Shown: positions 4,995-34,527 of the stretch, in pieces
How positions within the stretch are numbered: the stretch's first letter is position 1
Layout of the letters: each line of letters starts with the position of its first letter
Source of the DNA: a virus
Taxonomy: Duplodnaviria > Heunggongvirae > Uroviricota > Caudoviricetes
IMG/VR virus record: IMGVR_UViG_2667527789_000014
Length of the DNA: 34,527 nucleotides
Direction: 5' to 3' (one strand)
Position numbers and translations under genes: made by a program
The notes under the pieces: generated by a model
The model's database searches: none
What the model was told of the DNA's origin: nothing
The model's input: only the letters and a program-made list of their open reading frames with translations

Positions 4995-5691
4995 GGATCA
5001 TTTTCCCCAGTTCGGTTAATGAGTCTGCCGCCAGGAGTGCGGCCACAGTATGTACAGCGGTCGGTGCCGGGATATCCTTCACCATGGCCGCCGCTGCGGC
5101 GCGGTGATACCCCCGGTACTGAAATACCCAGGCCTGCGCCTTCTGTTCTGCCAGTGTTCTGATCCCCTCTTCCAGTCCGGCAAGTGCGCCAGCCCGTCTG
5201 CTGATAAAGCGGCTTATCTGGCGGCGAAGCCCTGCGGCATCCGGGCGTTGTGCTGCCAGCTGCCTGGCCTGTGCTGCACGGGCGGCGCTGACTGCGTTGC
5301 GCATTGTGGCAACGGAAAAATGAACAGGTGCGGGCAGGGTGTCGGTGGTGATCGGGATTTGCATTTTGTCAGTGCTCAGACTGGCGGCAGCCTGCGCCAT
5401 GCGCTGTGCCTGCGTGAATACCGGCACGGGCAGAACGGCGGTCAGTGCCGCCATTGACTGTATAAAAAGATCGTGGGTGTTTTCGGCAATCATGATAATG
5501 GTCACGTCGCCGGATGCACGGCTTCCGGCCATTTTCCCGGCCAGCCAGTTTATGGCGTTCGGAGGGCTTAAATATACCCCCGATTCTTCATATCGTCCCA
5601 GCCCGTAAGTCCACGGTGTGACGGGGATGACGGAACAGCTCAGCGGGGGCATGTCAGCGCTGACGCTGATTGTTTTTCTTGTCCACGTCAT
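4966..5691 (-). CDS. hypothetical tail-associated protein
   Basis: 241 aa ORF starting 12 nt after the tail fibre assembly gene. GC-rich like the structural module. No motif recognised. Confidence 0.35.
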   Translation of the reverse strand: MTWTRKTISVSADMPPLSCSVIPVTPWTYGLGRYEESGVYLSPPNAINWLAGKMAGSRASGDVTIIMIAENTHDLFIQSMAALTAVLPVPVFTQAQRMAQAAASLSTDKMQIPITTDTLPAPVHFSVATMRNAVSAARAAQARQLAAQRPDAAGLRRQISRFISRRAGALAGLEEGIRTLAEQKAQAWVFQYRGYHRAAAAAMVKDIPAPTAVHTVAALLAADSLTELGKMIHEPDRTTRP

Positions 5692-6299: not shown

Positions 6300-8359
6300 T
6301 ATGCAAGCCTCACGATGTAGTTAAATGCGATGTTTTTGACGGTGTTTTCCGCATTACCGGTGGGGTTAATGGTCAGGCCGTGGCCATGTTGACCCAGTGC
6401 GAGCGTGTGGATGTGTTCGCCAATGCTTACCGAATGTGTGTGTTCCGAAACTCTGGCGATCAGGTTCGCCCCGGAGCCCGGCCCGTATGCGGTCCAGTCA
6501 CCGCTGCCTTCCGGTGACGCGATGGCGGTTCTTAATGATATTGTTGCGCTGAACGGCCCCGCGCTGTTTGTTGTTTTTGTGCCGTAATTGAAGGATGAGG
6601 TCGTTTTTGTGCCAAGGTCAGTATTTGAGACGCTCCCTCCGTGGGTGTGCGATTTGATGCCGTCCTGCTCCTGTGACAATACCGCACGACCGCTGGCAGG
6701 TTTTCCCTTGATTGTCCAGCCACGCATATCCGGGATGCGACCGTCCGGATAGGCTTTTGCCAGCAGGGGATATTGCGCTTTATCGAATGTCTGCCCCACC
6801 ATGATGGCGTAACCGGCAGGTGGGGTGTCTGACGGCCACGGCAGGGGAACACCTGCGGGTAACAACTCACTTGCAGGCAGTGCGCCGATGTCCTGTGGTG
6901 TGGGTTTGTTTTTGTCCGTGTAAGTGCGGTACCAGATGGCGCTTTTCCCTTTACTTAAAATAACTCCGGTGAACTGTGTGCGGTGAGGTCTGGTGATGTC
7001 TTCAGGGGATTCAATGCCTGTAGTGATCCTGATGAGCCCCCCGTTGATGTCGCCTGATACTTCGATAAGGCAGCCTCCAAGGCAGATATCGCCATAGCCC
7101 GTATCAGTGAGCACGCTGTGCTGTGACAGTGAAATATTGGCTTTGAATATCCAGAGTCCTGGTCTGAAGGCGCCACGTTCATTCAGCCATTCCACGAATT
7201 GTTCCGTTGTCCAGCGTTGCCCTGCTTTACCCACGTACCCGTCTTTTGCATAAACGCGTGGTGCGCCCACGTTGATCAGGAACAGCTCCTTGTTGGGGAT
7301 GTCCTCACCATTGCGGTTTTTCGCAAGCCGACCATCGGCGTTGTCCATGGCGATCTTTATAGCCTTTGGCGTGGCTGCCTGTGTCTCTGATGTACTGGTG
7401 GTGGCGCTGCTTAACTGTGTGAAGCCCTTTTCTTTCAGCGTTGCGTCCGGGTGGTTGCGTGATTTCTCGTGTTTTTTCAGGGCGTCCAGACTGCGGCGCT
7501 CTTCCGGGGTTCCTCTGGGGCGGAGGTCAGTCACGTTGCCGTCTTCATCAATTTCAGCGATGGCACAAAAATATTGCTGAATGCCGTCCCTCGGATACGT
7601 TTTCCGTAAACGCTCTTCCGTAACGTCCGGGTCGGCTGTTATGATTTCGTGCTCTGTCGCCCATTCACTGGTGAGCGTGCCGGTCCACCACACATTCAGC
7701 CAGATACGGGACGGGAAGGCGGGCGTGGTCATGGGGTGGTGAGTGCTCAGCTCTGCGCGTAGCCCCTCCACGTAACCCACCCCTTTGTTGACTGTCCAGG
7801 TTTCGCCTTTCTTAACCAGCCACCCGTCATCAAAAAAAGTTGCCTTCCCGTAGATATCGACGTTTTCGCGGCGCTGGCGTTCGTCCATGGATGCCAGGCG
7901 TGCCGTGAAGTCTATCTGCCAGGTCTGCGCCGGGGTGGTGATACCTGTGGCTTCCTTCGCACCGCTGTACTCCATGAGCATGGAACGGACCAGCACATTA
8001 CCTTCGTTACCGTTGTGGGTTCTGATTTTTTTCTGTGTGGGGGCGTGAACAATCATGGCCAGCGTGCTGGTTGCTTTGCTGACCAGTCCCACCCAGTTAA
8101 ATTCAAAATCACCCAGCTCTGCCCCCAGGGTGACCGAATAAACCACGGCATTCTCATTCACCACGCCGGTTTTGCCGGTAGCCTGGCGGTGCACAATCTG
8201 ATCTTCAGGCGGCAGGGTTTCGTCGGGGGATACCGGTGTTTCCGGGTTGAGGTCCGGGACGTTTGCAAAAATAAACTCATCCAGCACAACGGGGGTGCCT
8301 TCCGCCGCCTGCTGTGCCTTGAGCCGGATAAAGGCGCTGGTAATTACAGATTTCGCCAT
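6299..8359 (-). CDS. tail fibre protein (gpH-like)
   Basis: 686 aa with a conserved-looking N-terminal fibre attachment region ([19 protein letters not shown]...[11 protein letters not shown]) and a Gly/His-rich C-terminus ending [11 protein letters not shown]. Followed by the Tfa gene. Confidence 0.65.
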
Positions 8360-8381
8360 AAAGTCATACTCCTTCAGTCAT

Positions 8382-8930
8382 TCACTCTGCCCTGGCCGTC
8401 CAGCAGATATACTCCCCTTCGTATGCGCCATAATGGATGATGAAGGGGTTGAGGGTTTCCACCTCAAAACGGTAACGGCGGCATGTCCTGCCATATTTGC
8501 GGATGATCTCCAGAAGAAGATCGCTGTTGTCGGCTATCTGGCTGTCTGTCACCTGCACCAGGATCACATCCCAGTCCACGCCGGGCTGGCGCTCGAGTAA
8601 CTCCACGTAGCCGATGCCCAGCCGTTCAAAAATGGCGATAAAGCCCGCCACCTCGCCAGCCTCCTGTGCATTGATGAAGGCGTAACTGATGCGGCGGCGG
8701 TAGATCTCCGTGGGTTCTCCTTTAAAGCGGGTGATGTCCCGCTCCCATGCCAGTAAATCAAGTACAGGCTCTGCACATGTCATGGGGTCAAACTGGCGCA
8801 CGGGCCAGGTGATCCATTCCCATACGCGGGACCAGAACGCCTGCGCGGCCCGCAGCAGTTTGTCGGGTTCTCCCCTGTCCATCCATGAGGGCAGTTTCAG
8901 CGAGCGAAGCCGCTGCAAAAAGTCATTCAA
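8382..8930 (-). CDS. baseplate/tail protein, P2 gpI-like
   Basis: 182 aa, positioned between the J-like and fibre genes as gpI is in P2. Confidence 0.45.
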   Translation of the reverse strand: MNDFLQRLRSLKLPSWMDRGEPDKLLRAAQAFWSRVWEWITWPVRQFDPMTCAEPVLDLLAWERDITRFKGEPTEIYRRRISYAFINAQEAGEVAGFIAIFERLGIGYVELLERQPGVDWDVILVQVTDSQIADNSDLLLEIIRKYGRTCRRYRFEVETLNPFIIHYGAYEGEYICWTARAE

Positions 8931-25067: not shown

Positions 25068-25472
25068 TTACCTGCGTGATTGTCTGCCAGCGGCTGAATG
25101 CACATAGCGGGCAATTGCCGCTTTGCGGTTAATCGATGCCAGTGTTCTGGTCAGTTCTGCGTTGTGTTTGTGTGCCTGCTCTTCGTGGTACTGCCGCATG
25201 ATTTTTCCGGCAGGCGTGAGCGGCTCCGGCTCTCCGGGCGGACGGCGCGGACGAACGGCGACAAGCCAGCTGCGGTTGGTGCTGTCCGGTCGTCCGTTGA
25301 GTATGTCGGTGATGATGGCCGTGGTGGTGCGATCGGGACTGACGACCGTGATTTCCAGCTCATCGCCCGGTTGTGGCCCCGTGGCAATGTTGTTCAGGGT
25401 CAGTAAGGGCGTGCGCTGGCGCATCATTTCGTCAAAGCGCTGGCGCTGCATGGCACAATAAAAGCGGGTCAT
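25068..25472 (-). CDS. hypothetical protein (134 aa) downstream of the replication gene
   Basis: Overlaps the replication gene stop by 4 nt. No recognisable motif. Confidence 0.45.
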   Translation of the reverse strand: MTRFYCAMQRQRFDEMMRQRTPLLTLNNIATGPQPGDELEITVVSPDRTTTAIITDILNGRPDSTNRSWLVAVRPRRPPGEPEPLTPAGKIMRQYHEEQAHKHNAELTRTLASINRKAAIARYVHSAAGRQSRR

Positions 25473-27997
25473 TGTGGCGCCTCCGTATTCGGTGCGGGGG
25501 TGATATCAATGCGGCGGGTGCTGTCATTCCAGTACGCGGTGCGTCCGTCAGCCAGGCGCACGCGGGCACCGTGACGGACGGAAACGACGGCGCTTTCATG
25601 CAGCTGCACGCCCAGCGCATCAAGCTCGCGGGTGATTTGTGCGGTGATGTGTGGCTCAGCGGTCAGAGCGACACTCACGCGAACGCCGCCAGCGGGCGCA
25701 CTGATGCCGCCGTTTTTCACGGTTTCCGTGTCAGGTGGCGGGTTTTTCAGCTGCCTGGTGAGTTGTTTTCGCTCTGTGGGGGTCAGTGACCTTAACCATT
25801 CACCCAAATCACCTTCCGGCAGGGTAAGTCGCTGCTCCCTGCGTCCGTCCGGCTGCCTTTCTGGCGGGTCGTTTATGGTCAGATTCTGGTCAGGGGGACA
25901 GTTATTGCCACGAGTCCAAGGTGCGGCAAAGCCGCACTCAACGTCAAAACCCTCGTCCGTGCGGTCTTCGTTTTCCGGCTTACGTCTGACCAGTTTCCAG
26001 GTGTCCGGGTGGGTGCATATGGTGTAGCGCTCCCCGAGTGACGGGGCGCGGACGCCGTAAATGCGTTGCGGGAATTCGCCGTAGTCGTTGGCCTCTTCGG
26101 CAGTTTCGTATGCGGTGCGGACCAGGTACGTGTTGCGGGGAATGAGCACACCACCCTGGCGGGTGATATAGGTGGCAAAACATCCCACGTCGGCGGCGGC
26201 CAGTATGGCGTCAATGTCGTCATGGTCCAGACGCTGCGGGGCAGCCGGGTTACGGGCCATCTGCCCGGCAAGGCGGCGGAGTTCTCGCCATACCTGGCGG
26301 GGAGGGATACCGAAGAACTGGAACTGGCGGATGCGGTGAAGGGCCGCCCAGCCGATGGCGTTCTCCACGGTTTCGGCCATGGTTTTGCCTGATTCCTTAT
26401 CGACGTAAGGTTTGCCGGTTTTCGGGTCATTCCCCATGAAGGCGCTGGCGTCCAGGTTCTTACCGATATAGGTCGCGATATAGCTCGCCGGTGTGCCTTT
26501 TGCCGGGTCGATTTTTTCGCATTTAAAACGCGGGGAGATATCATCACCCAGCTCTGCGCGGTCCTCCCTGATGGCGGCGTTGCGCATGATTTCAGTGATA
26601 CGGGCTTCGTTTTCCGGGCTGGTGAATACCAGCATGTGCCAGTGCGGTGTACCGTCGTGGTGGGGCTCCACGGTGCGCACGCCGTACCAGCCCAGCCCGG
26701 CCTTGTTGATGGCCCTGCGGACGGCGGCGAAAAAGCGGTAAACCAGATAATCACTGGCATCACGTACCGTTGCTCCGCAGTATTTCGGGTTCAGGCTGCC
26801 GTCATCGTTCACGCTGTGAAAACGGGAAGGGGCTGTGACGGTGACGAAAAACGCCAGGTCGCCGCGTGCTTCGGCGACCTGCTCCATTCCCCGGACGCAG
26901 GCCATCATCTCGTTACGGCGGTTACGCGGATTAGAGAGACCTGCCCAGTAGATATCCTCAAGGCTGAACCGTTCTCCCTCTTCGTTCTCGATGTCCCAGG
27001 CCTTCAGAAAATCGCGGGTGCGCTGGCGTTTTTCGCGCCAGTCCAGTAACGCTTCATGGCTGATATATACCGATGTCTTACGTGACACCAGACCTGCGGC
27101 GCGTAACAGTTCTTCACGCCAGATGTCCCGGAGGTGTCTTAACTGACTGTTCCACCATGTCGCACAGGAAAGGCGCATGACCGCACCCGGCACCTGTTCC
27201 GGGTCGGGGGCGGTGCGGCGGTCGGGCCTGATTTCCAGCGACGGCCAGCAGGGTGGCGTGATACCCAGTTTTAACGCCATGTGTGCCAGTGGCTGGTAGG
27301 TCAGTAACCAGGTGAACAGGTCATCGTCACCCCTGCCGGTCTTTTCGATGACCTCATCACATGCGCGCTCCAGTGCGGTGGAAAACGCGGTGGCGGTCAG
27401 GGTGGCAAGGCGCTGGATTTCGTCACGGCTCAGCTGCGGCAGCATAAGCAGTTCATCCAGCCGTTCGCGCGCGGCGGTGGCCTTAAAGGCCGGGGTGGCA
27501 AAGCGATCATTCACACGGGCGATACGTTTCAGGCGGGCACGCAGCCCGTGACGAACGAAGTTATCCGCCGCGTATGCGCTGTTGTTCTTAAGCCCTTCCC
27601 GGCGTGCGCTCTCCTGTTTGCGGCTCAGGCGTGCCAGGTCACGGATGAGCGGACCGGCAAGAAACGGCGGCAGGGCGCGCAGCTCTGCCATGGCTTCAGA
27701 TACCAGCGTTGGCGGATTCTCGTGTTTGTGCCGCGCCAGTTTTTCCAGTCTGATCCGACGCTCTTCGTCGTGGTGAAGATGCGAATTAATTCGCTTGCCT
27801 TCGTCTGTGTTTGTCAGGAAGTCGACGGTCTCTTCATCCAGTCTTGCATCAATGCGAATGTCTTCGTTGATGTAGCTCTGAATGGCCTGGCGCAATGCGG
27901 TTGGTTGCGCTCTGCCGAATGTTTCAGGATCGATAACCGGTAGCGGGGCGTTCCACGGGTACGCCAGTTGTGCGTTATGGTCGCTCATGCGTCGCAC
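25469..27997 (-). CDS. rolling-circle replication initiation protein (P2 gpA family)
   Basis: 842 aa. Contains the HUH-type motif in DGTPHWHMLVF and the paired active-site tyrosines in YIATYIGKN, as in the P2 A nickase family. Confidence 0.8.
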   Translation of the reverse strand: MRRMSDHNAQLAYPWNAPLPVIDPETFGRAQPTALRQAIQSYINEDIRIDARLDEETVDFLTNTDEGKRINSHLHHDEERRIRLEKLARHKHENPPTLVSEAMAELRALPPFLAGPLIRDLARLSRKQESARREGLKNNSAYAADNFVRHGLRARLKRIARVNDRFATPAFKATAARERLDELLMLPQLSRDEIQRLATLTATAFSTALERACDEVIEKTGRGDDDLFTWLLTYQPLAHMALKLGITPPCWPSLEIRPDRRTAPDPEQVPGAVMRLSCATWWNSQLRHLRDIWREELLRAAGLVSRKTSVYISHEALLDWREKRQRTRDFLKAWDIENEEGERFSLEDIYWAGLSNPRNRRNEMMACVRGMEQVAEARGDLAFFVTVTAPSRFHSVNDDGSLNPKYCGATVRDASDYLVYRFFAAVRRAINKAGLGWYGVRTVEPHHDGTPHWHMLVFTSPENEARITEIMRNAAIREDRAELGDDISPRFKCEKIDPAKGTPASYIATYIGKNLDASAFMGNDPKTGKPYVDKESGKTMAETVENAIGWAALHRIRQFQFFGIPPRQVWRELRRLAGQMARNPAAPQRLDHDDIDAILAAADVGCFATYITRQGGVLIPRNTYLVRTAYETAEEANDYGEFPQRIYGVRAPSLGERYTICTHPDTWKLVRRKPENEDRTDEGFDVECGFAAPWTRGNNCPPDQNLTINDPPERQPDGRREQRLTLPEGDLGEWLRSLTPTERKQLTRQLKNPPPDTETVKNGGISAPAGGVRVSVALTAEPHITAQITRELDALGVQLHESAVVSVRHGARVRLADGRTAYWNDSTRRIDITPAPNTEAPQ

Positions 27998-28401
27998 TCC
28001 CCGGCAGTCGCCGCCTGAAACGCCGCGCGGTACAGCACGAGAAGGCGCTGGTATTCACCGATAAAGTCTTCTGCGGTGTATATGCCTTTCACGGCCACGC
28101 TGTGGGTTGTCATTTCCAGAACAAGCGTCATCTCTGACGACGACCAGCTGATGGCGGTGCTGTCGGTTCCGTTGATGTGAAATAAACCAAAACCATCACC
28201 ATCGCCTTTCACGTCCACGCGGTAACGGCCGTCAACGGTGAAGGAGAAATCCCCGTATGTGGTGACGCGTCTGGCGACCTGTTTACAGGCGCGGCGGTAA
28301 TAGTCGTGCCAGTCGTTCAGGCGGGAAGCCAGCCGGGGATCCACTGCCCACATCCAGTTAAAAAAATCCTGAATATCTGAAAGTCCCTTAACGCTCTTCA
28401 T
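27985..28401 (-). CDS. hypothetical early protein (138 aa)
   Basis: Overlaps the replication gene start by 13 nt. No motif recognised. Confidence 0.45.
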   Translation of the reverse strand: MKSVKGLSDIQDFFNWMWAVDPRLASRLNDWHDYYRRACKQVARRVTTYGDFSFTVDGRYRVDVKGDGDGFGLFHINGTDSTAISWSSSEMTLVLEMTTHSVAVKGIYTAEDFIGEYQRLLVLYRAAFQAATAGECDA

Positions 28402-28469
28402 GAGAACCTCCGGTAACCGACGTGCGGAAGCCTCCCGCGCACGGGTGCGGGATGGCTTCAGGATGTTGT

Positions 28470-28697
28470 TTAGTGGTGGTGTTGCTGGTTGATAAGGTCC
28501 TGCAGTTCTGCCAGGTCTTCGGCCAGATAGCTGAAGACTGCCGCGTAATACCCGGCAGCGATACCATCGTTAAGTCGATGTAATGCGTTTGACTGCATGA
28601 TGAAGGTGACAGATGCAGCCCGATGGAGTCTGCGGTTAATTTCAGTGCGGATGTGAAGACGCTCAGCGCGGGCGCGCTGTTGTTTGCGGTTTGCCAT
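28470..28697 (-). CDS. hypothetical small basic protein (75 aa)
   Basis: Plausible AAGAGG 9 nt upstream. This ribosome-binding site lies inside one arm of the repeat element at 28700-29010. Confidence 0.4.
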   Translation of the reverse strand: MANRKQQRARAERLHIRTEINRRLHRAASVTFIMQSNALHRLNDGIAAGYYAAVFSYLAEDLAELQDLINQQHHH

Positions 28698-28699
28698 GG

Positions 28700-29010
28700 T
28701 GTTTGGCCTCTTGTAGTAAGTTCTGAAAACTCACCAACCCGAGGTTCCAAGCTCAGGGTGGCGAGACGTACAGGGTTGGAACTACCGGCTACAAGAGATC
28801 CCGGCCCGACCGAAGTCGGCCCCGTACGCCCCGCCATAATTCTGACGCGAAAAAGACGTGGCGATACAGTACGCACAAAAAAACCGCTGGCGCGGTTGTG
28901 CGCTCTTGTAGTCGGCGGGGTTCCAATCCCGGCACCCGTTTTATGAGGTGCGGGAAAACTGTAACCCGACCAGGCGAACGCTGGCAAGCGGTTTTTTTGT
29001 GTGTGCATGT
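28700..29010. promoter_or_regulatory. structured non-coding element inside the early operon (three copies of a 22-24 nt motif in alternating orientation, plus terminator hairpins)
   Basis: Motif CTCTTGTAG...GGTTCCAA occurs at 28709-28750 and 28904-28927 and inverted at 28774-28797. No credible ORF; the 206 aa ORF in the track here is low-complexity. Confidence 0.35.
28866..28894 (-). terminator. intrinsic terminator or attenuator within the early operon
   Basis: Minus strand reads CGCACA-ACCGC-gcca-GCGGT followed by TTTTTTT. It lies upstream of the replication-proximal genes. Confidence 0.45.
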
Positions 29011-32091: not shown

Positions 32092-32517
32092 TCACGCAGC
32101 TTTTTTACTGATGCGTTTATTCCGTGAACCAGCTGCTGGCTTAAATAAAAAAAGTCGGTTTTCCCATTCGTGCCATTCTTGCGGTGCGTTTTCAGTGAGT
32201 CGATCGCAGGCTTCATCCCATGCTTTCCGGTTGATGTAAAGTTCGGCGTTTCCGCCAGGCTTGAGGGGATCCGCCATGTACACAGCGGGTAATTTCCCTG
32301 CTTTTGCCATGCTCACGATGGCGTCAACGGTCTTGCCGATATACATCGCAAACCCTTCTTTTGACAGGAGATGAGAAGGGTTTTGTGAAAGCCTGATTTC
32401 CTGGCGTTCAGGGGCTTTGCGCCCGGTCTTTTGGTGTGCGGTTTCTGGCGCATCTGTCAACTGATCGCACTGTGTTTCGGCAGGCGATTCAGGCGCGTTT
32501 TGAGTGACTTCTTGCAT
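32092..32517 (-). CDS. Cox-like excisionase/regulator with an N-terminal extension
   Basis: Start at 32517 (MQEVTQN) with GGAGGA 6 nt upstream. The C-terminal ~85 aa (YIGKTVDAIVSMAKAGKLPAVYMADPLKPGGNAELYINRKAWDE) resembles P2 Cox as I recall it. First gene of the leftward early operon, divergent from the repressor. Confidence 0.5.
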   Translation of the reverse strand: MQEVTQNAPESPAETQCDQLTDAPETAHQKTGRKAPERQEIRLSQNPSHLLSKEGFAMYIGKTVDAIVSMAKAGKLPAVYMADPLKPGGNAELYINRKAWDEACDRLTENAPQEWHEWENRLFLFKPAAGSRNKRISKKAA

Positions 32518-32624
32518 CTGGTATCCTCCGTTATTGGCCCCTTTTTCGAATAGGGACCATGTAGAACCAATTGCGACTATTCTTGTGTTGCTATACACAA
32601 AAATTATTGGAGATTAGAAAAATT
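32518..32624. promoter_or_regulatory. lysis-lysogeny switch region (divergent early and repressor promoters)
   Basis: A 107 bp AT-rich gap between divergent Cox-like and repressor genes. TTATTGG repeats at 32530 and 32604; candidate -35/-10 hexamers TTGCGA and TATACA on the plus strand. Confidence 0.45.
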
Positions 32625-32924
32625 ATGTCAATACCGCAAAATGAGAAATTAAAACTTATCAGAGAGTCCGAACGGATGAAAATGAAGGAACTATCTGATT
32701 TAATTGGAATTAATTACTATACATATCATGGCTATGAAAGTGGGAAATCTAAGATGCCTCTTGATTTTGGGATCCTTCTTTTGCGGCACGCTCGTTTCCG
32801 TAAATACCGTGACTGGTTTTTGTTCGATGAGGTCGAACCAAAGGCCGGGCAGGTGGTACCGGCTCTCGCACACATTGGGCAAAGCGAAGCGGAATCATCC
32901 CACTCCGGCAAGAAGACTGGTTAA
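32625..32924 (+). CDS. immunity repressor, P2 C-type
   Basis: 99 aa, the same length as P2 C. Ends PALAHIGQSEAESSHSGKKTG against PALAHFGQNETTSPHSGQKTG in my recollection of P2 C. GGAG ribosome-binding site upstream. The track ORF starts earlier at 32571. Confidence 0.8.
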   Translation: MSIPQNEKLKLIRESERMKMKELSDLIGINYYTYHGYESGKSKMPLDFGILLLRHARFRKYRDWFLFDEVEPKAGQVVPALAHIGQSEAESSHSGKKTG

Positions 32925-32990
32925 CGGTCCATCTGGCCTTTATTTCTCAAAATTGTGATCAAGATGATGTTTTCATTGGGGGGCTTCCTT

Positions 32991-33986
32991 ATGTCGATTA
33001 AGAAGCTCGCTGATGGCAAATACTGTGTGGACGTGCGGCCTGCTGGATCTGAAGGAAGAAGATTTCGGCGGCGATTTCCTACCCGTGGTGAAGCGGCGAT
33101 GTATGAACGCCATGTTCTGACGCATTATCACGATAAGGACTGGGTCGAAAAACCTATTGAACGTAAAGCGTTAAGCGATCTTCTGGAACTGTGGTGGGTG
33201 TACCACGGTAAGAATCATCGTTATGGCGCGATGAATCGGGTCAGAATTGAAGCGGTTCTTCGTGATATGCAAGAGCTTGGTATTAACAGAAGTGACCACT
33301 TAACCCGAAAAAATATTATCAGATATCGCCTTGAATTAATGAATCGCGGAATTAAGCAGTCAACGGTAAATCGTTATTGTGCAATGATGAGCGGTTTCTT
33401 TGAAAAGCTGATTGATGTTGAAGAGTTTGTGGGTGATAACCCGTTTCACGAGATACGCAAGCTAACAATTAATCAGCCGGAAATGGCTTATCTTGCACAT
33501 GATGATATTCCCAGGCTAACCGCACTTTTATCTGGCGATAATCTTAAGGCTGTATTGTTAAGCCTGGCTACAGGCGGACGCTGGGGTGAAGTTGCCAATA
33601 TTAAAGGTGAACACATAATTGGTGGGAAGGTTATTTTCATGGAGACAAAGAATGGATCGCGGCGGGTTATTCCTATAGCTAAAGCTCTTGAATCTCTGAT
33701 TAAAGTCAAAGCGACGGGAAGATTAATGAACCCCAGTTATGCGATAGTCAGAAGTGCAATAAGGACTGTGCGGCCTGATTTACCAGTCGGTCAGTCTGTG
33801 CATGTTTTACGGCACACATTCGCAACTCATTTCATGATTAATGGAGGGAACATTATTACCCTTCAGCGTATTTTAGGGCACAGCACAATTCAGCAGACAA
33901 TGACCTATGCGCACTTTGCACCTGATTATCTCCAGGACGCGGTAAGGTTCAATCCGGTTGCGGAGTTGTCCAGATTTTGCCCATAA
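32991..33986 (+). CDS. int: tyrosine integrase (P2 Int-like)
   Basis: Starts MSIKKLADGKYCVDVRP (compare P2 Int MAIKKLDDGRYEV). C-terminal catalytic region HVLRHTFATHFMINGGNIITLQRILGHSTIQQTMTYAHFAPDYL carries the R-H-R-Y signature residues. Confidence 0.85.
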   Translation: MSIKKLADGKYCVDVRPAGSEGRRFRRRFPTRGEAAMYERHVLTHYHDKDWVEKPIERKALSDLLELWWVYHGKNHRYGAMNRVRIEAVLRDMQELGINRSDHLTRKNIIRYRLELMNRGIKQSTVNRYCAMMSGFFEKLIDVEEFVGDNPFHEIRKLTINQPEMAYLAHDDIPRLTALLSGDNLKAVLLSLATGGRWGEVANIKGEHIIGGKVIFMETKNGSRRVIPIAKALESLIKVKATGRLMNPSYAIVRSAIRTVRPDLPVGQSVHVLRHTFATHFMINGGNIITLQRILGHSTIQQTMTYAHFAPDYLQDAVRFNPVAELSRFCP

Positions 33987-34101: not shown

Positions 34102-34244
34102 TGCGAGACGACTCGCATTCTGTTTTGTAATTCCCTCACCCTTTGCTTTTCTCTCCGAGCCGCTTTCCATATCTGTTAACGCATAAAAAACTCTGCTGGC
34201 GTTCACAAATGCGCAGGGGTAAAACGTTTCCTGTAGCACCGTGA

Positions 34245-34261
34245 GTTATACTTTGTATAAC
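34245..34261. promoter_or_regulatory. palindromic operator overlapping the promoter of the antitoxin gene
   Basis: GTTATAC-ttt-GTATAAC is a perfect inverted repeat 15 nt upstream of the ATG, overlapping TATACT/TATAAC -10-like hexamers. Confidence 0.5.
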
Positions 34262-34275
34262 TTAAGGAGGTGCAG

Positions 34276-34527
34276 ATGCGTATTACCATAAAAAGATGGG
34301 GGAACAGTGCAGGTATGGTCATTCCCAATATCGTAATGAAAGAACTTAACTTACAGCCGGGGCAGAGCGTGGAGGCGCAAGTGAGCAACAATCAACTGAT
34401 TCTGACACCCATCTCCAGGCGCTACTCGCTTGATGAACTGCTGGCACAGTGTGACATGAACGCCGCGGAACTTAGCGAGCAGGATGTCTGGGGTAAATCC
34501 ACCCCTGCGGGTGACGAAATATGGTAA
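34276..34527 (+). CDS. chpS: MazE/ChpS-family antitoxin (83 aa)
   Basis: MRITIKRWGNSAGMVIPNIVMKELNLQPG... has the AbrB/MazE fold signature and matches E. coli ChpS as I recall it. AAGGAGG 5 nt upstream. The cognate toxin gene would lie beyond the window end. Confidence 0.75.
   Translation: MRITIKRWGNSAGMVIPNIVMKELNLQPGQSVEAQVSNNQLILTPISRRYSLDELLAQCDMNAAELSEQDVWGKSTPAGDEIW

What the first reader, a model, noticed from the sequence alone, without database searches (positions are those of the whole stretch)
28700..29010. Structured non-coding element in the early operon with mutually exclusive pairings that could gate the downstream ribosome-binding site
About 310 bp without a credible ORF carries three copies of a 22-24 nt motif. 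The middle copy (28774-28797) is inverted relative to the outer two (28709-28750, 28904-28927), so it can pair with either one. Pairing with the downstream copy would sequester the AAGAGG upstream of the gene at 28470-28697; pairing with the upstream copy would free it. An intrinsic terminator for the early transcript sits between them at 28866-28894, and a second weaker hairpin plus T-run faces the other way at 28975-28997. This looks like an attenuator, antitermination site or small-RNA locus upstream of the replication genes. An invertible DNA switch is an alternative reading.
Basis: seen in the sequence. Interest (0 to 1): 0.6.

Follow-up and report, generated by a model that had tools for sequence, protein, structure and literature searches.

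The report
Known IsrK–C4 phage immunity RNAs
The repeats are real and mark a well-known pair of small phage RNAs (IsrK/seqA and the C4/CI antisense RNA) that block the ribosome-binding site of an anti-repressor gene in a P2-like prophage, so this is an ordinary, unannotated member of a known system.

Summary
The three-copy motif is real. CTCTTGTAG occurs three times in 34.5 kb, all in this region, against 0.09 expected. Rfam explains the region completely: 28877-28951(-) is isrK (RF01394, 69 bits) and 28754-28841(-) is the C4 antisense RNA (RF01695, 83 bits). The same pair occurs in satellite phage P4 (seqA and CI RNA) and in Gifsy-1 (IsrK and 'orf45'/STnc1160).

The middle, inverted copy is the C4 loop (b2) and joint (b'). 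The upstream copy lies inside IsrK. The downstream copy lies just after C4 and covers the AAGAGG Shine-Dalgarno sequence of a 75-aa homologue of P4 epsilon (Derepression family).

In 14 related P88-like (Xuanwuvirus) loci almost all variation falls in these six patches, and they change in concert: 98-100% of cells stay paired, with 52-55 double-sided changes. Across about 84 loci, cognate complementarity clearly exceeds non-cognate.

The element is a processed, probably trans-acting immunity RNA system, not an attenuator or an invertible switch.

- The "second hairpin" coincides with the -35 box and A-tract of the predicted isrK promoter.
- The region is not ORF-free: a conserved eta-like read-through ORF spans it.

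Verdict: a new member of a known kind, of low interest.

The parts
28958..28998 (-). Predicted isrK promoter: A7 tract 28992-28998, -35 TTGCCA 28982-28987, -10 TACAGT 28958-28963. The predicted start site is about 28951.
   Evidence: The consensus scan matches 9 of 12 positions. Both hexamers and the A-tract are conserved in 14/14 P88-like loci although the spacer comes in two unrelated versions. The -10 aligns with the TATAGT upstream of the P4 isrK/seqA match. Position 1 of the Rfam isrK model falls at 28951.
28877..28951 (-). IsrK / seqA-like small RNA. It carries the upstream target sites a1' (UUGGAAC, 28920-28926) and a1-2 (CUACAAGAG, 28903-28911).
   Evidence: RF01394 scores 69.1 bits against a gathering score of 50, over the full length of the model, E 5.8e-13. 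The same model hits P4 8615-8692 and Gifsy-1 34240-34316. Covariation with C4 is shown.
28872..28903 (-). Intrinsic terminator of IsrK: stem 28882-28897, seven U at 28875-28881, with an extended outer stem.
   Evidence: Found by the terminator scan. It corresponds to the third hairpin of the isrK model. The hairpin folds at -15.4 kcal/mol. It is invariant in 14 relatives.
28754..28841 (-). C4 / CI-type antisense RNA. The b2 loop is CUCUUGUAG (28789-28797) and the b' joint is GUUCCAA (28774-28780).
   Evidence: RF01695 scores 83.3 bits against a gathering score of 45, over the full length of the model, E 3.8e-15. The fold is -47.8 kcal/mol with z -4.96 and matches the family consensus structure.
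28707..28750 (-). Downstream target (equivalent to seqC, or a'/a2). a' is UUGGAAC (28744-28750), 3 nt after the C4 3' end. a2 is CUACAAGAG (28708-28716) and overlaps the Shine-Dalgarno sequence AAGAGG (28707-28712).
   Evidence: Sequence. The same positions relative to C4 and to the SD/ATG recur in most of 60 specificity types. Covariation with b'/b2 gives 97.8-100% of cells paired.
28470..28697 (-). First gene controlled by the module: a 75-aa homologue of P4 epsilon, the anti-repressor ('derepression protein').
   Evidence: Pfam PF25738 Derepression scores 27.5 bits against a gathering score of 27. BLASTP against P4 epsilon gives 34% identity over 50 aa, E 2e-8. P4 epsilon itself scores 170 bits on PF25738. 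Close relatives annotate the gene as 'derepression protein'.
28388..29008 (-). Eta-like read-through ORF of 206 aa. It starts 11 nt after the stop of the upstream early gene. It spans the promoter, IsrK, the terminator, C4, the targets and the whole epsilon-like gene (in another frame). It stops 11 nt inside the next ORF.
   Evidence: ORF list. Weak Phage_ASH hit of 19.6 bits, below the gathering score of 26. The same frame relative to C4 is open in 14/14 P88-like, 9/9 'MATT' P4-like and 18/18 Rha-group loci, while the other two frames are almost never open. The stop overlaps the next start as ATGA in 9/14 loci and lies 11 nt after it in 3 more, including the window. The P4 precedent (eta) is described in PMC10111431.
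25469..28401 (-). Downstream operon: a 138-aa ORF (27985-28401) and the gpA replication endonuclease (25469-27997), which overlap by 13 nt.
   Evidence: ORF list. PF05840 Phage_GPA scores 356 bits. A 97.5%-identical E. coli prophage carries the same annotation.

Best explanation
The region is an IsrK-C4 RNA immunity module. It is the same system as seqA/CI RNA/seqC of satellite phage P4, c4 of P1/P7, and IsrK/'orf45' (STnc1160) of Gifsy-1. Here it sits inside the early operon of a P2-like (Xuanwuvirus, P88-like) prophage.

**Shown here**
- Both RNA genes are present at full length.
- The C4 loop (b2) and joint (b') are complementary to a site pair inside IsrK. They are also complementary to a site pair immediately after C4 that covers the Shine-Dalgarno sequence of the 75-aa epsilon-like anti-repressor gene.
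- All four helices are maintained by concerted changes in related phages.

**Inferred from the characterised relatives**
1. An internal, probably constitutive promoter (start site about 28951) makes short IsrK, which ends at its own terminator. Some transcripts read through.
2. C4 is cut out of the read-through RNA. In P1 and P4, by my recollection of that literature, RNase P makes the 5' end.
3. C4 pairs with a'/a2 and blocks translation of the epsilon-like gene. Polarity on downstream genes follows.
4. IsrK, which carries the same target sequence, competes for C4 either in cis or as a free RNA. This relieves the block.
5. The pairing patches are hypervariable because they set immunity specificity between co-resident elements.

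**More tentative**
Transcripts from the early promoter Pe may escape the module. Ribosomes would translate the eta-like ORF through the terminator and C4, then reinitiate at the 138-aa ORF and gpA.
For: - **Rfam matches.** C4 scores 83.3 bits and isrK 69.1 bits, both full-length.
- **Same pair in characterised elements.** The isrK and C4 models hit, in the same order and strand, in P4 and Gifsy-1. P88 has the pair immediately upstream of its epsilon-like gene; P2's early region has neither RNA.
- **Collinearity.** The alignment runs promoter -10, isrK, terminator, C4, target, SD, ATG in the window, P4 and Gifsy-1.
- **Repeat significance**.
- **Fold.** C4 folds into the family structure with z -4.96.
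- **Duplex energies.** The b segment pairs with a1 at -35.4 kcal/mol (z -5.6) and with the a2 region at -29.0 kcal/mol (z -2.7).
- **Covariation in 14 P88-like loci.** 97.8% and 100% of cells are paired, with 52 and 55 double-sided changes. No shuffle of 500 reaches the observed covariation score. Controls with partners slid by 1-3 columns give 31-52% paired.
- **Cognate versus non-cognate complementarity over 84 loci.** The mean longest exact complement is 8.0 vs 4.95, 6.8 vs 4.7, 7.2 vs 5.1 and 7.1 vs 4.9 nt for the four site pairs. In most specificity types a2 sits on the SD 7-10 nt before the ATG.
- **Downstream genes elsewhere.** Thirteen of 20 sampled first ORFs after C4 are anti-repressor-type proteins: Rha, Bro-N, AntA, KilAC, ORF6N or P22_AR. 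Here the gene is a P4-epsilon homologue.
[quoted passage not shown] PMC4825925 shows IsrK read-through, a processed RNA of about 80 nt, IsrK pairing with that region, and translational activation.
Against: - No expression data exist for this locus. The promoter, the processing and the trans action are all inferred.
- The promoter match is only 9 of 12.
- The Derepression Pfam hit is barely above threshold (27.5 vs 27).
- RF03163 (c4-a1b1), a separate model for the upstream target, scores only 21.5 bits against a gathering score of 46.7.
- The published Gifsy-1 model stresses cis alternative structures and an activating role for IsrK, not a repressing C4. The division of labour between cis and trans is therefore unsettled.
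- How the phage expresses gpA past a strong terminator during lytic growth has not been shown.
Confidence: 0.88

Rival explanations
1. The element is a purely cis-acting leader. The read-through transcript switches between two folds: IsrK site paired with the C4 region, or the C4 region paired with the SD region. No processed RNA acts in trans.
For: - The minimum-free-energy fold of the 262-nt leader pairs the IsrK a1 sites with the C4 b region in cis. In that fold the SD sits in a local hairpin.
- PMC4825925 documents alternative cis structures A and B at the homologous Gifsy-1 locus.
Against: - The same paper shows that short IsrK acts in trans and that an RNA of about 80 nt is processed out.
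- C4 alone folds stably into the family structure.
- The six pairing patches diversify in concert within otherwise near-identical sequence. This is expected for trans-acting specificity (heteroimmunity). A purely cis switch would gain nothing from it.
Confidence: 0.07
2. The region is mainly protein-coding. The conserved 206-aa eta/Ash-like ORF is the functional product, and the RNA-family matches are secondary.
For: - The frame is open in all members of the enterobacterial groups examined.
- Both ends of the ORF show translational-coupling signatures.
- There is a weak Phage_ASH hit.
- P4 eta is a translated ORF in the same position (PMC10111431).
Against: - The covariation follows base pairing, including double-sided changes in all four helices. 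It does not follow amino-acid conservation.
- Many more distant C4 loci lack any spanning ORF.
- In P4 the ORF and the RNAs coexist, so this reading complements the main one and does not replace it.
Confidence: 0.03
3. The element is an invertible DNA switch. The inverted repeats are recombination sites that flip the segment between them.
For: Inverted repeats of 13 and 10 nt flank segments of about 105-137 bp.
Against: - No invertase gene lies nearby. The only recombinase is the prophage integrase about 4 kb away.
- All 14 close relatives are collinear. In every homologue where a downstream ORF was identified, C4 lies on the same strand as that ORF.
- The arms are bipartite with different spacing in each copy.
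- G-U pairs occur at covarying positions.
- The arms lie inside two Rfam RNA genes.
Confidence: 0.01

Closest known systems
Satellite phage P4 immunity region: PLE promoter, seqA, CI RNA, seqC, all within the eta/kil ORF and upstream of epsilon and the replication gene alpha
   Same: - The isrK and C4 Rfam models hit in the same order and on the same strand (P4 8615-8692 and 8420-8507).
- The promoter -10, target sites, SD and ATG are collinear.
- The module lies upstream of an epsilon-family gene and then a replication gene.
- A read-through ORF spans the RNAs, in the same frame relative to C4 in P4-like loci.
   Different: - The host element is a complete P2-like phage with gpA, cox, C, terminase and portal, not a satellite.
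- P4 has an extra stretch of about 75 nt between seqA and CI.
- In P4 the first regulated ORF is kil (65 aa), which is in frame with eta and coupled to epsilon. Here C4 targets the epsilon-like gene directly. The eta-like ORF overlaps that gene out of frame and couples to the next ORF.
- The 138-aa ORF is unrelated to P4 orf151.
IsrK / 'orf45' (STnc1160) / AnrP locus of Salmonella prophage Gifsy-1 (Hershko-Shalev et al. 2016, PMC4825925)
   Same: - isrK (79 bits) is followed by a C4-model hit (69 bits) that falls between the isrK hit and the annotated anti-repressor-like gene, where the paper places 'orf45'.
- The locus has its own promoter, a leaky terminator, complementarity between IsrK and the C4 region, and control of an anti-repressor.
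   Different: - Gifsy-1 is lambdoid, and its module lies after the Q antiterminator gene.
[quoted passage not shown]
- Here the module lies in a P2-type early operon ahead of an epsilon-like protein and the replication initiator.
c4 antisense RNA of the immI operon of phages P1 and P7 (c4-icd-ant).
   Same: - The RNA family is the same.
- Recognition is two-part (b'/b2 with a'/a2).
- a2 lies on the ribosome-binding site of the first downstream ORF.
- The RNA and its target are transcribed from one promoter.
- Specificity is set by a few bases in the pairing patches.
   Different: - P1 was not fetched or scanned here, so I did not test whether it has an isrK-type upstream RNA.
- The regulated genes there are icd/ant, and the host is a plasmid prophage.

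Membership tests
Rfam RF01695, C4 antisense RNA | Covariance-model score at or above the gathering score (45 bits) over the full model | tested here: met
   83.3 bits, model positions 1-87 of 87, E 3.8e-15.
Rfam RF01695, C4 antisense RNA | A long closing stem encloses two hairpins. The second loop and the 3' joint are single-stranded. | tested here: met
   The minimum-free-energy fold equals the consensus architecture: -47.8 kcal/mol, z -4.96.
Rfam RF01695, C4 antisense RNA | The loop (b2) and joint (b') are complementary to target sites on the same transcript, and a2 covers the ribosome-binding site of the first downstream ORF. | tested here: met
   9 + 7 nt of perfect complementarity. a2 overlaps AAGAGG. 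Covariation gives 97.8-100% of cells paired. The pattern recurs across 60 specificity types.
Rfam RF01695, C4 antisense RNA | The regulated gene is an anti-repressor. | tested here: met
   PF25738 Derepression scores 27.5 bits against a gathering score of 27, which is borderline. BLASTP against P4 epsilon gives E 2e-8. Anti-repressor activity itself was not tested.
Rfam RF01695, C4 antisense RNA | The RNA is processed (RNase P at the 5' end) to about 77 nt and represses in trans. | not testable with these tools
   This needs Northern blots, RNA-seq and genetics.
Rfam RF01394, isrK (= P4 seqA RNA) | Covariance-model score at or above the gathering score (50 bits) | tested here: met
   69.1 bits, model positions 1-77 of 77.
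Rfam RF01394, isrK (= P4 seqA RNA) | Own promoter directly upstream and an intrinsic terminator at the 3' end | tested here: inconclusive
   The terminator is clear. The promoter is a 9-of-12 consensus match whose hexamers are conserved while the spacer varies. No start site has been mapped.
Rfam RF01394, isrK (= P4 seqA RNA) | The middle part is complementary to the C4-like RNA downstream. | tested here: met
   a1'/a1-2 pair with b'/b2. The duplex energy is -35.4 kcal/mol, z -5.6. Covariation is shown.
Rfam RF03163, c4-a1b1 (upstream target motif of C4) | Covariance-model score at or above the gathering score (46.7 bits) | tested here: not met
   21.5 bits, E 0.0039, at 28912-28964. The isrK model covers the same region better.
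P4-like satellite phage | Satellite gene set (alpha primase, sid, psu, delta) with no structural genes | tested here: not met
   The window encodes gpA (PF05840), terminase, portal, Cox, a C-type repressor and an integrase, so it is a P2-like phage. Only the immunity cassette and the epsilon-like gene are shared with P4.
Invertible DNA switch (Hin/Gin/Fim type) | An adjacent invertase, with both orientations present among isolates | tested here: not met
   No invertase gene lies nearby. All 14 close relatives are collinear. In the distant homologues with an identified downstream ORF, C4 and that ORF share a strand.
Classical cis transcription attenuator | An alternative pairing that competes with the 5' half of the terminator stem | tested here: not met
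   None of the repeat copies overlaps the terminator stem. The terminator hairpin persists in the full-leader fold. The 21-nt inverted repeat 28984-29004/28871-28891 pairs with the 3' half and the U-run only, and it is not conserved as a helix.

The most novel reading that the evidence does not exclude
In P88-like P2-type phages the P4-style immunity cassette may be wired as a two-route switch.

- **Route 1, from the internal isrK promoter.** These transcripts are terminated, and C4 silences the epsilon-like gene. The anti-repressor stays off unless IsrK titrates C4. This could give an otherwise P2-type repressor an RNA-gated induction route.
- **Route 2, from the early promoter Pe.** A conserved eta-like ORF carries ribosomes through the terminator, C4 and the whole epsilon-like gene, which is nested in another frame. 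Translation is handed on by stop/start overlap to orf138 and gpA, so replication would escape C4 immunity.

A corollary is that this helper-type phage lineage and its P4-like satellites share one diversifying RNA-immunity cassette and one epsilon family.
Probability: 0.3. Interest if true: 0.45.

Novelty: new member of a known kind. Interest (0 to 1): 0.22.

Why it matters
Mostly as an annotation fix. Several annotated records leave the two RNA genes unannotated. They either call nothing, place a hypothetical CDS on the opposite strand (phage P88), or flag an "ash family" pseudogene.

The locus also shows that the RNA immunity cassette and epsilon-type anti-repressor known from satellite P4 occur in a lineage of its own helper family (Xuanwuvirus), directly ahead of the replication initiator.

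The concerted changes in three separated patches within near-identical backgrounds give a clean natural data set on how RNA-based immunity specificities diversify. None of this changes the known mechanism.

Tried and rejected
1. **The 21-nt inverted repeat 28871-28891/28984-29004 as an antiterminator for early-operon transcripts.** Rejected. It would pair only with the 3' half of the terminator and the U-run. The upstream arm is simply the promoter A-tract plus the -35 box. Ten of 14 relatives lack the local hairpin.
2. **A plus-strand promoter (CTGACG-17-TACAGT, about 28843-28871) making an RNA antisense to IsrK that ends at the plus-strand T-run.** It matches only 8 of 12 positions by eye and falls below the scan threshold. 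Not pursued.
3. **Homology of the 138-aa ORF to P4 orf151.** None found.
4. **Shared full specificity (b2 plus b') between P88-like phages and P4-like or Rha-type elements, which would imply cross-talk.** No identical combination appears in this sample. Only single determinants are shared.
5. **The second GGGUUGG motif at 28732-28738 as an alternative partner for b'.** It is not conserved in relatives.
6. **tRNA or tmRNA.** None found.
7. **Original P4 papers.** PMC176756 is not held and I did not try PMC94026. P4 details rest on secondary descriptions in PMC4825925, PMC3632133 and PMC10111431.
8. **P1/P7.** Not fetched.

Full report
**Observation**

- The motif is bipartite. CTCTTGTAG and GTTCCAA lie on the + strand at 28708-28716/28744-28750 and again at 28903-28911/28920-28926. 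The reverse complement of both halves lies at 28774-28780/28789-28797.
- The 9-mer occurs three times in the 34.5-kb window, all in this region. The expectation is 0.09, and none of 100 shuffles reaches three.
- Read on the minus strand, the downstream copy overlaps AAGAGG (28707-28712), which lies 9 nt before the ATG at 28697.
- The minus-strand terminator is real. It has a 6-bp G+C-rich stem at 28882-28897, seven U, and an outer extension.

Two sub-claims do not hold.
- The "weaker hairpin" at 28975-28997 has a 4-bp stem.
- The region is not free of ORFs. Both points are taken up below.

**What it is**

A scan of the whole window against Rfam gave exactly two hits, and both fall in this region. 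C4 antisense RNA (RF01695) lies at 28754-28841(-) with 83.3 bits against a gathering score of 45. isrK (RF01394) lies at 28877-28951(-) with 69.1 bits against 50. Both cover the full model.

The middle, inverted copy is the second hairpin loop (b2) and the following single-stranded joint (b') of C4. C4 alone folds into the family structure at -47.8 kcal/mol, z -4.96. The downstream copy starts 3 nt after the C4 3' end and ends on the Shine-Dalgarno sequence.

The same two models hit, in the same order and on the same strand, in two characterised elements.
- In satellite phage P4 they fall at 8615-8692 and 8420-8507, which are the seqA region and the cI RNA gene.
- In Gifsy-1 they fall at 34240-34316 and 34131-34214. 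The second hit lies where the paper places 'orf45'/STnc1160.

An alignment of the window with P4, Gifsy-1 and a P88-like phage is collinear. It runs from the promoter -10 through IsrK, the terminator, C4, the target and the SD to the ATG.

The literature already makes this equation.
- Barquist et al. 2013 call IsrK and C4 the structural homologues of P4 seqA and CI RNA. They speak of the "IsrK-C4 immunity system" used by P4, P1, P7 and N15 (PMC3632133).
- Hershko-Shalev et al. 2016 say the same for Gifsy-1 IsrK. They describe an RNA of about 80 nt processed from the read-through transcript (PMC4825925).
- Weinberg et al. 2010 list both the c4 RNA and its upstream target motif (PMC2864571).

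**Context**

The window is a P2-like prophage. Its genes are:

| Feature | Coordinates |
|---|---|
| Integrase | 32955-33986 |
| C-type HTH repressor | 32571-32924 |
| Cox | 32092-32598(-) |
| Long minus-strand early operon (DUF4761, DUF4754, MarR-like, Ead/Ea22-like) | between Cox and the RNA module |
| RNA module | 28707-28998(-) |
| 75-aa gene | 28470-28697(-) |
| 138-aa ORF | 27985-28401(-) |
| gpA replication endonuclease | 25469-27997(-) |
| Portal and terminase | opposite strand |

- The closest records are P88-like phages (genus Xuanwuvirus) and E. coli prophages, with up to 97.5% identity.
- Phage P88 itself has isrK and C4 directly upstream of its "derepression protein". P2's early region has neither RNA.
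- The 75-aa protein belongs to the family of P4 epsilon, the anti-repressor of the P2 C protein. PF25738 scores 27.5 bits against a gathering score of 27. BLASTP against P4 epsilon gives 34% identity, E 2e-8. P4 epsilon itself scores 170 bits on the same model.

**Test across relatives**

A structural pattern for the C4 core retrieved 120 viral contigs. About 84 of these are non-identical, genuine C4 loci with about 60 different b2/b' combinations.

I compared the longest exact complement between a locus's own b2 or b' and its own flanks with the same measure using other loci's b sequences.

| Pairing | Cognate (nt) | Non-cognate (nt) |
|---|---|---|
| b2, downstream | 8.0 | 4.95 |
| b', downstream | 6.8 | 4.7 |
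| b2, upstream | 7.2 | 5.1 |
| b', upstream | 7.1 | 4.9 |

In most types a' sits 0-6 nt after C4, and a2 sits about 30-38 nt after it, on a GGAG/GAGG motif 7-10 nt before an ATG.

In the 14 P88-like loci almost all sequence variation is confined to the six patches. I counted the four inter-site helices on that alignment.
- The result is 97.8% and 100% of cells paired, with 52 and 55 cells changed on both sides.
- No shuffle of 500 reaches the observed covariation score.
- Controls with partners slid by 1-3 columns give 31-52% paired.

The first ORF downstream of C4 in other lineages is usually an anti-repressor-type protein: Rha, Bro-N, AntA, KilAC, ORF6N or P22_AR (13 of 20 sampled). That matches an epsilon-like gene here.

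**Mechanism**

The RNA genes, the complementarities, their conservation by compensatory change, and the overlap with the SD are shown here. The remaining steps are inferred from P1, P4 and Gifsy-1.

1. A promoter directly upstream of IsrK is predicted: TTGCCA, an 18-nt spacer, then TACAGT. The hexamers are conserved in 14/14 relatives across two unrelated spacers. It would make short IsrK plus some read-through.
2. C4 is processed out of the read-through RNA.
3. C4 binds a'/a2 and blocks translation of the epsilon-like gene.
4. IsrK carries the same target sequence. It pairs with the C4 region in cis: the minimum-free-energy fold of the 262-nt leader does exactly this, as in "structure A" of PMC4825925. 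It may also act as a free RNA that relieves repression.

The patches diversify in concert inside otherwise invariant sequence. This argues that at least part of the action is in trans and sets immunity specificity. A purely cis switch would have no reason to diversify. That last point is my inference.

**The spanning ORF**

A 206-aa minus-strand ORF (29008-28388) runs through the promoter, IsrK, the terminator, C4, the targets and the whole epsilon-like gene, which it overlaps in another frame.
- It gives a weak Phage_ASH hit of 19.6 bits. The old P4 "cI ORF", which is part of eta/kil, hits the same family at 59.7 bits.
- The same frame relative to C4 is open from at least 100 nt upstream to at least 35 nt downstream in 14/14 P88-like, 9/9 'MATT' P4-like and 18/18 Rha-group loci. 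The other two frames are almost never open.
- Its ATG lies within 11 nt of the stop of whatever early gene precedes it.
- Its stop overlaps the start of the next ORF as ATGA in 9 of 14 loci. In three more, including the window, the stop lies 11 nt after that ATG.
- Synonymous resampling of the epsilon-like gene gives only modest support for the open overlapping frame, P 0.11-0.64 per sequence.

In P4, the eta ORF contains the internal promoter, seqA and CI. It is translated only from the upstream late promoter, and its translation suppresses termination (Forti et al. 1999, as summarised in PMC10111431).

By analogy, Pe-initiated early transcripts could carry ribosomes through the module and reinitiate at orf138 and gpA. 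That would explain how replication genes get past a strong terminator. This is a hypothesis at about 0.3 probability.

**Rejected readings**

- **Invertible switch.** No invertase lies nearby. All close relatives are collinear, and C4 shares a strand with the downstream ORF wherever one was identified. G-U pairs occur at covarying positions.
- **Classical attenuator.** None of the repeats competes with the terminator stem.
- **Second terminator at 28975-28997.** Only the A-tract and the -35 box are conserved there.

**Verdict**

The element is a member of a known, catalogued system. What is specific to this instance is its host (a P2-like Xuanwuvirus), its direct control of an epsilon-family gene ahead of gpA, and the out-of-frame eta-like ORF. 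The right description is a new member of a known kind, of low interest.

Noticed in passing
window 28388-29008 (-): A conserved eta-like read-through ORF of 206 aa spans both RNA genes and overlaps the whole epsilon-like gene in another frame. Its start lies 11 nt after the upstream gene's stop. Its stop overlaps or closely follows the start of the next ORF (ATGA in 9 of 14 relatives). This suggests a chain of translational coupling that bypasses the RNA module.
   Followed up: partly
window 28774-28780, 28744-28750, 28920-28926 versus L001 (NZ_CP067426.1): An E. coli prophage that is 97.5% identical over 1 kb has the same b2/a2/a1-2 sites. All three b'-type sites are replaced together (GTTCCAA/TTGGAAC becomes TGGTAA/TTACC-type). 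It is unexplained how three separated patches change in concert while the interleaved b2-type patches stay the same.
   Followed up: partly
L126 (phage P88, NC_026014) 5033-5221: RefSeq annotates a 62-aa hypothetical protein on the opposite strand exactly over the isrK and C4 RNA genes. It has no Pfam match and is probably a spurious call. Another record marks the region 'similar to ash family protein'. The closest E. coli prophage (L001) calls nothing there.
   Followed up: partly
L123 (P4) 8168-8584 versus 7888-8175: Pfam PF10554 (Phage_ASH) matches the P4 ORF that overlaps the CI RNA gene (eta/kil). The real epsilon protein belongs to PF25738. A published survey of P4-like satellites lists PF10554 as its epsilon marker (PMC8628076). 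In current Pfam that marker would detect the eta/CI region instead.
   Followed up: partly
L018 2013-2267 (+): In one viral contig a C4 RNA with the same b' as the window sits directly upstream of an 85-aa protein. That protein carries a Tad2-like (Thoeris anti-defence 2) domain, not an anti-repressor domain.
   Followed up: no
L004 2210-5047 (+) and 7332-7573: Another C4 locus precedes a 946-aa helicase (ResIII/Helicase_C) interrupted by an intein. A HEARO RNA lies about 2 kb further on.
   Followed up: no
window 28732-28738 (-): A second sequence (GGGUUGG) is complementary to the 3' part of b' plus the start of the C4 closing stem. It lies between a' and a2 but is not conserved in relatives.
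   Followed up: yes
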